Shown here: positions 5,918-8,900 of the stretch, piece after piece
Position numbering within the stretch: position 1 is the stretch's first letter
How the letters are laid out: each line of letters begins with the position of its first letter
Source of the DNA: the human T2T-CHM13v2.0 reference genome, Homo sapiens
Reading direction: 5' to 3' (one strand)
DNA length: 64,000 nt
Assembly (NCBI RefSeq): GCF_009914755.1
Contig: NC_060925.1
Translations under genes and position numbers: made by a program
Notes under the pieces: generated by a model
Told to the model about the DNA's origin: nothing
Seen by the model: the letters and a program-made list of their open reading frames with translations, nothing else
Databases searched by the model: none

Positions 5918-8900
5918 GTGAGGCAGCCAACAGCAACTTCAACTCCTTCCTAAGAAAACATTACTTAACTTGGCCCTGGGGTCCAATGCACAAAGCCAAT
6001 TTTAAGCTAAATACCAACAGAAGGCTACAGACCTCTGTTCTTAGTTGCATCTCATGTGGTACACAAAACAAATTGGGCGGTTGTTTCAAAACCCCTTATC
6101 AGTAGACTTTTATGTTAAGCTGTCTGAAGTATTTATTTGGTGGGATGTATTTTAAAAGACTCCTAACACTCTTCCTTTTCACATTTTTTTACGTTGATAC
6201 TGGGGTCGTGCAGCACGGTAGCATGGTACCCTGGCTACAGTAGGCTTGCTGCCCAGTCCAAGGCCAGCAGTGTTGTGTCTGGCCTGTAAGAGGCAGGTAG
6301 CAAGCCATGAATATGTCCAAAGGCCCTTGAATGTCATTCTTGGGCCTTGTAAGAGGCACTCGCTTTGCTCCATTTCACTTTCTTTCCATTCTGCTTTTAG
6401 TTTGGTTTTGTTTTGGATTCTTCTACAGTTAAGTGTTCTTCTCTTCCATTCCATTATACTTCCTTGACAGAAATAATGAGTCTCTTCACAGGCTCATAAA
6501 TGATCAAACTGATGTAACTTTGAAAAGTAACTACTTGGAGTCAGAAAAAGTGATGATTGGAGACTAAGAAAAGTAAAGATATTCAAAGGCAGTTTCTATC
6601 TCTGACAACTTTGTTCATTAAGAGTGCCTTTGTTTAGGCGCGGTGGCTCATGCCTGTAATCCCAGCACTTTGGCAGGCTGAGGCGGGCGGATCACGAGGT
6701 CAGGAGTTTGAGATCAGCCTGCCCAACATGGTGAAACCCTGTCTCTACTAAAAATAGAAAAATTAGCTGGGCGTGGTGGCGTGTGCCTATAATCCCAGCT
6801 ACTCAGGAGGCTGAGGTAGGAGAATCACTTGAACCCGTGAGGCGAAGGTTGCAGTGAGCCAAGATCCTGCCACTGCACTCCAGCCAGGGCAACAGAGGAC
6901 AGAGTGAGGCTCCGTTTCAAAAAAAAGAATGCCTTTGATCAGTGATTTCATTAAGTTGACTTTCGACCACTGAAATTTACTTAATGTCTATTTTTGCCTC
7001 TTCTGAGGCATATGTGCTTCTCTCCTTATCTCTTTGGCTATGATAAGCTAATTATTTATGTTTGCATAATATTTATGTTTGCATGTTAGTGACATATATT
7101 TTAAAATGTGATACACTCCTGTAATTTATGAGAGTATGTTCATTGCTGTGAGCTTTGAAGGTGCTCTAATCCTTCCTCATATTTGGCCTTAGAATGCACC
7201 TCGGATCCCCCAAGGTTTAGGCTTTCTTCATTTGTCTTTGAAACTATATCTTCTGTCTCTTGTCATATCTGCTTATTGCGTGTTTTTCATACCTTCCACC
7301 TCTCTAAAAGCCGTTACCTGAGCCCTCGTTATCACTTTTGGTTGAATGTGCTGCACTTAGCTGCATTTCTAAGTTTCTGATTCTTGCAAGTTTGTGGAAA
7401 CAGAGGAGTCTTTAACCCACATCAGCCTTGATCTAAGTGTACCACTTTACTTAAAAGTTCGTGGGATCTGGAGCTCCTGGTCTAGCAAGCCATGAAAATG
7501 CCAATAAATGTTTGTAATAAAGCTTTTATTTAAACATCCATTTTGTTCGACCTTGAAGCTTTACTAATATGCTGAAGAACAAACAGCCGACGCCAGTGAA
7601 TATTCGGGCTTCGATGCAGCAACAACAGCAGCTAGCCAGTGCCAGAAACAGAAGACTGGCCCAGCAGATGGAGAATAGACCCTCTGTCCAGGCAGCATTA
7701 AAACTTAAGCAGGTGAGAGAATGGGTCTTAATGCTCCAGAAGCAGCTGGTGATCTCTGTGAGGGAGTCCACTGAGGCTGTCAGGACGTGATGGATGATTG
7801 CAAAGTGGCTCAGGGCAAAAAGCTGAAACTTCTCTGGAAGAAAGAGAAGTTCAGAGAATTCCAATTTTGGCAGGTACCAATAAGTAACTTTTTACTGTCT
7901 TTCTCTTTTAGGGAGTTTGCCATCTATGTGGCCTGTTTCTGTTACCAATGAGTATTAATCTTTTGTTTTCTGATCCTTAACCCTTAACATAGATTAATGG
8001 CTTATTCCACAAAGAAACTTTATTTCAGCTTTAGATAATCTCACAGCATCCTTTACTCTCTGTTAAATGATTTACCCAACAGGGAAATAATTTTATTCTT
8101 TTTCCCATAGTGCAGGGAGTTTGCATGGCCTTAGTCAAAGGTTTTCTTTTTTTTTTTTTTTTTAGACGGAGTCTTGCTCTGTCGCCCAGGCTGGAGTGCA
8201 GTGGCACGATCTCGGCTCACTGCAAGCTCCGCCTCCCGGGTCCATACCATTCTCCTGCCTCAGCCTCCCGAACAGCTGGGACTAAAGGTGCCCGCCACCA
8301 CACCCAGCTAATTTTTTTGTATATTTAATAGAGACAGGGTTTCACCATACTAGCCAGGATGGTCTCGATCTCCTGACCTCGTGATCCACCCGCCTCGGCC
8401 TCCCAAAGTGCTGGGATTACAGGCTTGAGCCACCGCGCCCAGCAGTCAAAGGTTTTCAATGCTAAAATATACAGAGTAGAGTGACCCTCATTTCCACAGC
8501 ACCTAAAGTTTTACCAGTAAAGTGGAGCAAGAATACTGAGTAATTTGAGTTAGGGGTTCTCTTTTTCAAATTTACAGTGAGAGATAATCCTATTCAGACC
8601 TGAAATAAAACCTGCTCTTTATTATTCATAGAATTTATATGCAAGTCCGGACAGTGGCTGTGGAAGGATATGTCCAAGCTGTGGCTGGGCGTCTGGAGGG
8701 CAGTGCCATGCAACTGTAAGGGCTTTGGTAGCATTGCATGGCTATGCATAAATTCAGCAGTTAAATATAACACCCTTACACCCCCACCCTGAACCATTGG
8801 GCTCACTGACCAAAAATAAACAAGGGTGTCTGCTTCGGCTACCTTAAGCCTTGGAGTGACTGGATTCCTCCCTGACTCAGGAAAGCAGCAAAAGGCACCA

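What the first reader, a model, noticed from the sequence alone, without database searches (positions are those of the whole stretch)
8632..8751. Third copy of the motif in CHTOP intron 3, inside a candidate in-frame 84-nt cassette exon
Seen: ATATGTCCAAG (8668-78; ATATGTCCAA also precedes unit 2 at 6311), an imperfect stem (AG.TG-TGGC / GCCA..CA.CT) and TGTAAGGGC (8715-23). Upstream is an acceptor TTCATAG| at 8631. The 8632-8715 segment is 84 nt, stop-free in the phase-0 frame of intron 3 ([28 protein letters not shown]), and the motif's GTAAG is its donor. If the donor is skipped, the frame stops at TAA 8749-8751. Inference: the same element controls splicing in two consecutive introns, which supports a dispersed regulatory family rather than a chance local duplication.
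Basis: partly seen in the sequence, partly recalled or inferred. Interest (0 to 1): 0.7.

Follow-up and report, generated by a model that had tools for sequence, protein, structure and literature searches.

The report
Known heart-muscle CHTOP cassette exon
The 84-base stretch in intron 3 of the human CHTOP gene is a real, conserved, rarely used extra exon that was already reported in heart and muscle RNA, while its resemblance to the gene's known self-regulating RNA element is no better than chance.

Summary

The cassette-exon guess is right, and it is already in print. Florea et al. 2013 (PMC3892928) show an unannotated 84-bp in-frame CHTOP exon as their Figure 2. They saw it only in heart and found it conserved in placental mammals. 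Margasyuk et al. 2024 (PMC11632617) list it as CHTOP exon 3b. A coordinate anchor, together, maps their exon exactly onto 8632-8715.

The 'third motif copy' is not supported.
- Units 1 and 2 are the known CHTOP-binding stem-loops of intron 2 (Izumikawa 2016).
- The intron-3 stretch scores at chance against them: covariance-model E-values of 0.66 to 3.4.
- Shuffled introns match or beat its local-alignment score in 14 to 60 of 60 trials.
- The shared TGTAAG is simply the exon's 5' splice site.

I infer that a UGCAUG 20 nt downstream of the donor promotes inclusion in muscle-type tissues through RBFOX proteins.

The parts
8610..8631 (+). Pyrimidine-rich tract and acceptor AG (8630-8631) of exon 3b
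   Evidence: Sequence read. The in-window acceptor weight matrix scores it 5.46, which is at or above 23% of 43 real acceptors scored leave-one-out.
8632..8715 (+). CHTOP alternative cassette exon '3b': 84 nt, phase 0, no stop, would insert 28 residues
   Evidence: for the sequence. It is published as the GRCh38 exon chr1_153639368_153639451_+ and as the 84-bp heart exon of Florea 2013. The offset window + 153,630,736 comes from the NPR1 end coordinate quoted. The other two stop-free 84-nt candidates have very poor splice-site scores.
8716..8723 (+). Donor GTAAGGGC: GTAAG followed directly by a G-run
   Evidence: The donor weight matrix scores ACT|GTAAGG at 5.27, at or above 26% of 42 real donors. 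The G-run at 8720 is listed.
8735..8740 (+). UGCAUG, the RBFOX-type element, at +20 to +25 of the donor (its function is inferred)
   Evidence: Of the 34 TGCATG sites in the window, 13 are on the + strand.
8668..8678 (+). ATATGTCCAAG, the 10/11-mer shared with the sequence preceding unit 2; judged a chance match
8749..8751 (+). In-frame TAA reached if the donor is skipped
8577..8578 (+). Stronger upstream acceptor (exon would start at 8578). With the same donor it gives a 138-nt exon that starts with TGA in phase 0.
   Evidence: (acceptor score 7.67). I found no published use of this acceptor.
6254..6300 (+). Unit 1, given for reference: part of the known CHTOP N1-domain-binding region Int2-1-2-2
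   Evidence: Using exon and intron boundaries, the paper's numbering equals window minus about 3245, so 2997-3138 corresponds to about 6242-6383. The unit folds with z = -2.26.
6313..6365 (+). Unit 2, given for reference: second stem-loop of the same known element
   Evidence: z = -2.75.

Best explanation
Segment 8632-8715 is a genuine U2-type GT-AG alternative cassette exon of CHTOP. It is conserved, preserves the reading frame, and is included at low level. It has been published as an unannotated heart exon and as 'exon 3b'.

Its splice sites are usable but weak, so it is skipped in most cells. In heart, skeletal muscle and blood vessel up to about 9% of transcripts include it. That would add 28 residues between the parts of the protein encoded by exons 3 and 4, and it does not trigger nonsense-mediated decay.

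My inferred mechanism for the tissue pattern is an RBFOX-type enhancer: a UGCAUG 20 nt downstream of the donor, possibly helped by the G-run that abuts the donor.

The resemblance to the intron-2 CHTOP-binding stem-loops is coincidental. The TGTAAG is there because it is the 5' splice site, and the ATATGTCCAA 10-mer is one of many chance recurrences.

What is shown: the exon, its junction reads, its conservation, its tissue pattern (all from papers), and the chance-level similarity (from my calls). What is inferred: the RBFOX and G-run mechanism, and any function of the protein isoform.
For: Florea 2013 (PMC3892928, passages) reports:
- an 84-bp in-frame exon at hg19 chr1:153,611,844-153,611,927, seen only in heart;
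- flanking introns supported by 5 and 59 reads, against 702 for the spanning intron;
- an exonic region highly conserved in placental mammals.

Margasyuk 2024 (PMC11632617, supplementary table ST1 row; methods and results sections) reports for the 84-nt exon 3b:
- class 'protein-coding';
- conservation score 676, against a set median of 280;
- split-read support 27, against a median of 5;
- coverage 88, against a median of 10;
- cycloheximide change in inclusion of 0.0;
- GTEx tissues blood vessel, heart and muscle, with maximum inclusion 0.093.

Mapping to the window:
- The GRCh38 end of NPR1, 153,693,992, lies at window 63,256. That gives an offset of 153,630,736, which places 153,639,368-153,639,451 exactly on 8632-8715.
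- Only 3 of 13 84-nt AG..GT segments in intron 3 are stop-free.
- The other two score 0.67 and -1.56, and -9.06 and 1.95, for acceptor and donor.

TGCATG lies at 8735-8740.

Chance-level similarity to the units is shown.
Against: Splice-site strength alone does not set this exon apart. 109 intronic pseudoexons score as well on both sites, and 11 of them, counting this one, lie in intron 3.

The RBFOX link rests on one hexamer plus the tissue pattern. I could not check whether that hexamer is conserved. The ENCODE regulator column of the published row reads NA, although those knockdown cell lines barely include the exon.

The published splicing index of 0.527 (set median about 0.8) means many reads at this exon's borders are unspliced. 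Part of the coverage of 88 may therefore be intron retention.

The peptide has no Pfam match. It has no orthologue-like hit among 1.84 billion representative proteins; the 2 hits are repeated Cys-rich zinc-ribbon-type proteins. So nothing supports coding function, and conservation could serve an RNA-level role.

The two-anchor pattern (3 hits against 0.22 expected) and the GUCC/GGGC closing helix of the isolated 52-mer do resemble the units.

I could not view either paper's figures, and the supplement of Izumikawa 2016 could not be read.
Confidence: 0.7

Rival explanations
1. Region 8668-8723 is a third, diverged copy of the CHTOP-binding stem-loop repeat of intron 2. CHTOP protein bound there controls use of the GTAAG donor, so one element family regulates introns 2 and 3.
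For: GTCCAA N20-45 TGTAAG matches only the two units and this site in the window, 3 hits against 0.22 expected. Folded alone, 8672-8723 closes with GUCC/GGGC around an inner hairpin, loosely like the GUC/GGC closing helix of both units. With model R2 it is the best plus-strand hit outside the units within the gene. The region is conserved. The unit GTAAGA sites and this donor score alike on the donor matrix, 5.2 against 5.27.
Against: Covariance-model E-values are 1.6, 0.66 and 3.4, and antisense and unrelated hits rank above it. The model bridges the inner stem with a 35-nt local insertion. Shuffled introns equal or beat its alignment score in 14 to 60 of 60 trials, and the best intron-3 hit lay elsewhere in 7 of the 8 settings and tied with it in one. 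Fold z-scores are -0.72, -1.59 and -1.13, against -2.26 and -2.75 for the units. In longer context the GUCCAAGC pairs upstream instead. The core TGTAAGRGGC does not match with up to 1 mismatch. CHTOP-dependent intron-2 retention is reproduced by constructs named Ex1-(Int2)-Ex4 and Ex2-(Int2-1)-Ex3. iCLIP found no clear CHTOP binding motif (PMC6675937, passage).
Confidence: 0.1
2. Exon 3b is mainly a regulatory 'decoy' exon. Its conserved splice sites engage the spliceosome unproductively and hold intron 3 in a retained or detained state. The rare spliced-in product is a by-product, and the conservation is at the RNA level, not the protein level.
For: Inclusion is low (maximum 0.093), conservation is high (676), and the splicing index is low (0.527, against a set median of about 0.8). 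Izumikawa 2016 saw an unresolved Ex1-Ex6 product of about 7000 bp. By my arithmetic, 2163 + 1641 + 3797 = 7601 would fit retention of introns 2 and 3 together. The peptide has no family and no orthologue-like hit.
Against: The frame is open and the length is a multiple of three, which a pure decoy does not need. Inclusion is tissue-restricted, not uniformly low. I found no data on intron 3 retention, and a search for CHTOP with 'decoy exon' returned 0 papers.
Confidence: 0.12
3. Exon 3b is splicing noise: a pseudoexon with passable sites that is used now and then in highly sampled tissues and has no function.
For: The splice sites fall in the lower quartile of real sites, and 109 equally good pseudoexons lie in 28 kb of intron. 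Inclusion is 0.093 or less. It is absent from RefSeq (hub table), and from GENCODE v43, VastDB and CHESS according to the paper.
Against: Two independent data sets (Body Map 2013 and GTEx 2024) find the same boundaries in the same tissue types. Conservation is far above the set median, and the exonic region is described as highly conserved in placental mammals.
Confidence: 0.08

Closest known systems
The CHTOP 84-bp novel heart exon of Florea, Song and Salzberg 2013 (F1000Research, Figure 2), which is CHTOP exon 3b of Margasyuk et al. 2024 (NAR Genomics and Bioinformatics, supplementary table ST1)
   Same: Same gene, same intron, same 84-nt length, in frame, and the same boundaries after coordinate mapping.
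   Different: Nothing differs: it is the same object. Neither paper discusses a link to CHTOP autoregulation, the UGCAUG, or the encoded peptide in the passages and sections I read.
CHTOP intron-2 autoregulatory element Int2-1-2-2: two stem-loops with conserved repeats bound by the N1 domain (Izumikawa et al. 2016, NAR)
   Same: Same gene and conserved intronic sequence. Both hold GUCCAA and UGUAAG words, and an isolated fold can close with GUC(C)/G(G)GC.
   Different: The match to a model of the two units is not significant. There is no comparable inner stem or fold z-score. Here the GUAAG is used as a real donor. [quoted passage not shown]
RBFOX-activated muscle and heart cassette exons with a downstream intronic UGCAUG
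   Same: UGCAUG lies 20 nt downstream of the donor. Inclusion is restricted to heart, muscle and blood vessel.
   Different: RBFOX dependence is untested. There is only one hexamer, and I could not check whether it is conserved.
Conserved cryptic or poison exons of RNA-binding-protein genes (alternative splicing coupled to nonsense-mediated decay)
   Same: A conserved, unannotated, low-inclusion exon inside an autoregulated RNA-binding-protein gene.
   Different: It is not poison: there is no stop and no frameshift, and the cycloheximide change in inclusion is 0.0. Only the unobserved 8578 acceptor variant would be poison.

Membership tests
U2-type GT-AG alternative cassette exon | Canonical AG acceptor and GT donor with splice-site scores within the range of real sites | tested here: met
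   Acceptor 5.46 and donor 5.27 fall at the 23rd and 26th percentiles of 43 and 42 real sites scored leave-one-out.
U2-type GT-AG alternative cassette exon | Junction reads joining it to the flanking annotated exons | not testable with these tools
   Taken from papers only. Florea 2013 gives 5 and 59 reads for the flanking introns. Margasyuk 2024 gives a minimum split-read support of 27.
U2-type GT-AG alternative cassette exon | Frame-preserving and stop-free, so classed as coding and not poison | tested here: met
   84 nt in phase 0 with no stop. Listed as 'protein-coding'.
CHTOP N1-binding intron-2 stem-loop repeat (Int2-1-2-2) | Significant match in sequence and structure to the two conserved repeat units | tested here: not met
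   R1 gives 8.1 bits with E = 1.6. R2 gives 9.1 bits with E = 0.66 over the gene and E = 3.4 over the window. Alignment scores sit at the level of shuffled introns. The models rest on only 2 sequences, so their power is low.
CHTOP N1-binding intron-2 stem-loop repeat (Int2-1-2-2) | Stable stem-loop of the units' shape: closing helix, GUAAGA internal loop, inner stem of 7-9 bp | tested here: not met
   z = -1.13 with 25 of 200 shuffles folding as well, against -2.26 and -2.75 for the units. The inner part is an irregular, interrupted helix, and the closing helix is lost in longer context.
CHTOP N1-binding intron-2 stem-loop repeat (Int2-1-2-2) | Binding by the CHTOP N1 domain and CHTOP-dependent splicing change | not testable with these tools
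   Needs a gel-shift or pulldown assay and CHTOP induction. I found nothing in print for intron 3: 'intron 3' occurs 0 times in PMC5175361 and 0 times in PMC8765754.
Poison exon (alternative splicing coupled to nonsense-mediated decay) | Inclusion introduces a premature stop codon and the isoform rises when decay is blocked | tested here: not met
   No stop and no frameshift. The published cycloheximide change in inclusion is 0.0.
RBFOX-activated exon | (U)GCAUG in the proximal downstream intron | tested here: met
   TGCATG lies at 8735-8740, which is +20 to +25 of the donor. By rough arithmetic from 13 plus-strand sites in 64 kb, the chance of one within 100 nt of a given site is about 2%. 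This was a post hoc look.
RBFOX-activated exon | Inclusion depends on RBFOX proteins, and the motif is conserved | not testable with these tools
   No vertebrate genomes or knockdown data were available. The ENCODE regulator column of the published row reads NA.
Decoy exon within a retained intron | Low-inclusion conserved exon whose splice sites are required for retention of the host intron | tested here: inconclusive
   Low inclusion, high conservation and a splicing index of 0.527 fit the model. The requirement for retention is untestable here.

The most novel reading that the evidence does not exclude
Exon 3b is a second control point of CHTOP's self-regulation. The conserved RNA around 8640-8760 would be read by CHTOP and hnRNP H, or by RBFOX in muscle. 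One outcome would hold intron 3 in a detained state. The other would produce a muscle and heart isoform with a 28-residue Cys-rich insert in or next to the RNA-binding N-terminal domain, which could no longer sense the intron-2 stem-loops. That would reset the CHTOP set-point in those tissues.
Probability: 0.1. Interest if true: 0.6.

Novelty: already known. Interest (0 to 1): 0.25.

Why it matters
That shows the approach works, but the exon has been in print since 2013 and was listed again in 2024. What remains open is modest.
- RefSeq RS_2025_08 still does not annotate the exon (hub table).
- Nobody, in the papers my searches reached, has asked what the 28-residue insert does to CHTOP.
- Nobody there has asked why a non-poison exon in an autoregulated export-factor gene is so conserved.
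- Nobody there has asked whether intron 3 takes part in the feedback loop.

The claim that would have been new, a dispersed CHTOP-responsive element family, does not survive testing.

Tried and rejected
**Rfam.** A scan of 5800-11700 at E up to 1 gave 20 matches, all inside Alu copies and none in 8444-9020.

**Repeats.** The 20 largest of 52 direct families and the 25 longest of 101 inverted pairs that the repeat finder showed are dominated by Alu. None of them covers 8632-8751.

**Own genome, BLAST.** 8444-9020 and 6200-6400 each match only themselves. The tool warns that such counts are lower bounds.

**Own genome, strict unit pattern.** GTCCAA N20-45 TGTAAGAGGCA gave 11 hits, against 2 for the reversed control. 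My naive expectation was about 9. Two of the 11 are the CHTOP units. I folded 6 of the 9 others and none has the units' shape. The other 3 had no locus and were not folded.

**Peptide search.** The search for homologous proteins would not take the 39-residue frame. The search of protein representatives gave 2 hits, both repeated Cys-rich proteins and not CHTOP. I do not know whether that library holds vertebrate proteins, so this says little. Pfam found nothing for the peptide.

**Supplements.** The supplement PDF of Izumikawa 2016, which holds Figures S5 and S6 with the stem-loop drawings, was too large to read. My placing of units 1 and 2 inside Int2-1-2-2 therefore rests on coordinate arithmetic. 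Two of the supplement files of the eLife 2022 paper were not searched, and the files that were searched held only primers for CHTOP.

**Literature searches.**
- CHTOP with 'decoy exon': 0 papers.
- CHTOP with 'cryptic exon': 3 papers, none relevant by title.
- CHTOP with RBFOX, 'exon inclusion' and 'muscle': 4 papers, none on this exon by title or by passages already read.
- CHTOP with 'cassette exon': 19 papers. One of them (PMC3892928) gave the 2013 report. Another concerns exon 5, not exon 3b.

**Ideas rejected.** A poison exon is ruled out because the frame is open. A young repeat or transposon origin is unlikely because the region is single-copy. An old repeat such as MIR or L2 cannot be excluded without a repeat library.
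Full report
**1. Observation.**
The window is human CHTOP, as the hub states. Reading 8400-9100 confirms every coordinate in the finding.
- ATATGTCCAAG lies at 8668-8678.
- TGTAAGGGC lies at 8715-8723.
- The acceptor TTCATAG ends at 8631.
- Segment 8632-8715 is 84 nt and translates as [28 protein letters not shown] in the intron's phase 0.
- Read-through reaches TAA at 8749-8751.
- The same 10-mer, ATATGTCCAA, lies at 6311-6320 in front of unit 2.

**2. What units 1 and 2 are.**
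Izumikawa et al. 2016 (PMC5175361; abstract, passages and sections 19-20 read) showed three things.
- CHTOP protein retains intron 2 of its own pre-mRNA.
- It does so by binding exon 2 through its RG domain, and a conserved intron-2 region called Int2-1-2-2 (their positions 2997-3138) through its N1 domain.

Matching their exon and intron boundaries to the hub's table gives their numbering as window minus about 3245. Int2-1-2-2 is therefore about 6242-6383. That span contains both units (6254-6300 and 6313-6365).

Folded alone, each unit takes the same shape: a GUC/GGC closing helix, a CA versus GUAAGA internal loop, and an inner stem of 7-9 bp. The z-scores are -2.26 and -2.75. I could not read the paper's supplementary figures, so I cannot say whether this is the authors' drawing.

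**3. Is 8668-8723 a third copy?**
I tested this in several ways that do not depend on picking the matching words afterwards.

*Words.*
- 10-mers of 6250-6368 recur 19 times elsewhere in the window, against a naive expectation of 13.4. ATATGTCCAA is one of those 19.
- With up to 1 mismatch the 10-mer has 4 matches against 3.0 expected, and 33 of 100 shuffles give at least 4.
- The unit core TGTAAGRGGC with up to 1 mismatch does not hit 8715.

*Local alignment.* I used 4 scoring schemes and 2 query spans.
- The score of 8656-8760 against the units was equalled or exceeded by dinucleotide-shuffled intron 3 in 18, 41, 38, 54, 23, 60, 14 and 23 of 60 shuffles.
- The best real hit in intron 3 lay elsewhere in 7 of the 8 settings and tied in one.

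- R1 (inner stem only) gives 8670-8731 a score of 8.1 bits, E = 1.6, rank 6 of 13 in the gene.
- R2 (closing helix added, to be fair to the hypothesis) gives 9.1 bits, E = 0.66, rank 5 of 20 in the gene.
- Over the whole window R2 gives E = 3.4, rank 8 of 13.
- R2 has to skip the inner stem with a 35-nt local insertion.
- Both models rest on two sequences, so their power is low.

*Folding.*
- 8632-8751 has z = -0.72.
- 8640-8725 has z = -1.59.
- 8672-8723 has z = -1.13.

- The pattern GTCCAA N20-45 TGTAAG hits only the two units and this site, 3 hits against 0.22 expected.
- The isolated 52-mer closes with GUCC/GGGC.
- However, the gap had to be widened to 37 nt, whereas the units have 23 and 27.
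- The helix disappears in longer context, where GUCCAAGC pairs upstream instead.
- The TGTAAG half of the pattern has its own explanation, given in section 4.

*Genome-wide.*
- The unit region is single-copy by BLAST.
- The strict pattern GTCCAA N20-45 TGTAAGAGGCA gives 11 hits, 2 of which are CHTOP. The reversed control gives 2, and my naive expectation is about 9.
- None of the 6 others I folded has the units' shape. Three were not folded.

An iCLIP study reports no clear binding motif for CHTOP (PMC6675937, passage). I conclude that the 'third copy' and the 'dispersed family' are not supported.

**4. Is 8632-8715 an exon?**
From sequence alone it is unremarkable. I trained a weight matrix on the window's own 42 donors and 43 acceptors.
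- It scores the donor ACT|GTAAGG at 5.27 and the acceptor at 5.46. These are the 26th and 23rd percentiles of real sites scored leave-one-out.
- 115 of 1,519 intronic GT sites and 165 of 2,152 intronic AG sites do as well.
- 109 pseudoexons of 50-250 nt in 28,262 intronic bases match or beat both scores. Eleven of them, counting this one, lie in intron 3.

The literature settles the question.

Florea, Song and Salzberg 2013 (PMC3892928; passages read) show as their Figure 2 a novel '84 bp in-frame exon' of CHTOP at hg19 chr1:153,611,844-153,611,927.
- It was seen only in heart, with a partial form in skeletal muscle.
- The flanking introns have 5 and 59 reads, against 702 for the spanning intron.
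- It has 'only weak EST evidence'.
[quoted passage not shown] Margasyuk et al. 2024 (PMC11632617; methods, three results sections, and the supplementary table row read) re-analysed 9,423 GTEx samples. They list chr1_153639368_153639451_+ as CHTOP exon 3b with these attributes:
- class protein-coding;
- not in VastDB or CHESS, and not in GENCODE v43 or RefSeq by their filter;
- conservation score 676 (set median 280);
- split-read support 27 (median 5);
- coverage 88 (median 10);
- splicing index 0.527 (median about 0.8);
- cycloheximide change in inclusion 0.0;
- tissues blood vessel, heart and muscle, with maximum inclusion 0.093.

*Mapping to the window.*
- Two papers quote the GRCh38 end of NPR1 as 153,693,992. 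The hub puts that end at window 63,256.
- This gives an offset of 153,630,736, which places the published exon exactly on 8632-8715.
- The NPR1 start differs by one base under the same offset.
- Independently, only 13 segments of 84 nt in intron 3 have AG..GT borders, and 3 of the 13 are stop-free.
- The other two have hopeless site scores: 0.67 and -1.56, and -9.06 and 1.95.
- The hg19 and GRCh38 intervals have the same length and differ by 27,524 at both ends. From recall, that is the usual shift for this region.

**5. How it most likely works.**

*Shown.*
- The exon has weak but canonical splice sites.
- Its frame is open, and it does not respond to blocking of nonsense-mediated decay.
- Inclusion is low and restricted to heart, skeletal muscle and vessel.
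- Conservation is strong.

*Inferred.*
- A UGCAUG sits at 8735-8740, which is +20 to +25 of the donor. From established knowledge (recalled, not read here), RBFOX proteins bound at a downstream UGCAUG promote exon inclusion and are abundant in these tissues.
- A G-run abuts the donor at 8720-8722, and hnRNP H is already a known player at CHTOP intron 2. G-runs next to donors acting as enhancers is again recalled knowledge.
- The shared TGTAAG is best read as 5' splice-site sequence. The unit sites score 5.25 and 5.20 on the same donor matrix.

*Weaknesses.*
- The RBFOX reading rests on one hexamer noticed post hoc, and I had no access to alignments.
- The low splicing index means part of the coverage may be intron retention.
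- The peptide has no Pfam match and no orthologue-like hit, so a coding function is unproven.

**6. Rivals.**
- A decoy-exon role in intron 3 retention (0.12) fits the low inclusion, high conservation and splicing index of 0.527. It also fits an unresolved RT-PCR product of about 7000 bp in Izumikawa 2016 (2163 + 1641 + 3797 = 7601 by my arithmetic). It does not explain the open frame or the tissue restriction, and I found no data on it (one search returned 0 papers).
- Pure splicing noise (0.08) is hard to square with two independent data sets and the reported conservation.

**7. Comparison and novelty.**
The object is identical to a published exon, so I rate it 'already known'. It fails membership of the Int2-1-2-2 repeat family on the two features I could test, and it fails membership of the poison-exon class. 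It meets the sequence criterion for an RBFOX-type exon, but dependence on RBFOX is untested.

By title listing or read passages, none of the papers returned by my searches covers any of the following:
- a functional study of exon 3b;
- a study of the 28-residue insert;
- a study of a role for intron 3 in CHTOP feedback.

Most of those papers were seen only as search listings. Supplements other than those named above were not searched.

**8. Verdict.**
Interest is low to moderate because the real part is already published and the novel part is at chance level.

Noticed in passing
window 6298-6320 and 7483-7504: Direct repeat within intron 2: TAGCAAGCCATGAA is an exact 14-mer in both places, and 21 of 23 aligned positions match. 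The first copy sits between units 1 and 2. The second sits about 55 nt upstream of the exon 3 acceptor. It is the only recurrence of 12 nt or more of the 6250-6368 element anywhere in the window.
   Followed up: partly
window 6256-6296 and 6315-6359: Both known CHTOP-binding units fold alone into one common shape: a GUC/GGC closing helix, a CA versus GUAAGA internal loop, and an inner stem of 7-9 bp (z = -2.26 and -2.75). Their xxT|GTAAGA sequences score as moderate 5' splice sites, 5.25 and 5.20, close to the real exon 3b donor at 5.27. They may act as U1-binding decoys. I have not checked this against the paper's own figure.
   Followed up: partly
window 6637-6897 (+ Alu) and 8147-8443 (- Alu), flanking exon 3 at 7559-7712: Inverted Alu pair across exon 3, 84-88% complementary over 126-140 nt (pairs I2 and I3). 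Further inverted Alus lie at 9021-9374 and 9472-10047. This geometry is known to favour back-splicing or long-range pairing around exon 3 and exon 3b.
   Followed up: no
window 8578-8715: A stronger acceptor (score 7.67) lies 54 nt upstream of the exon 3b acceptor. With the same donor it would give a 138-nt exon that opens with TGA in phase 0, which is a poison variant. The Margasyuk table does not list it: CHTOP occurs only once in that file.
   Followed up: partly
window about 8632: [quoted passage not shown] That could contribute to both the conservation and the read coverage of the region.
   Followed up: no
window 8948-9008 (+) and 6988-7041 (-): These are chance-level covariance-model hits to the unit model that score as well as or better than the supposed third copy: 9.6 and 13.5 bits with R1. 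The first contains TCCAAAGGACCTT, a 12 of 13 match to unit 2.
   Followed up: no
window 47953-63256 (NPR1): The NPR1 span is 15,304 nt in the window but 15,305 nt in the GRCh38 region quoted in PMC10665444. This is either a 1-nt difference in the annotated start or a 1-bp indel between the assemblies.
   Followed up: no
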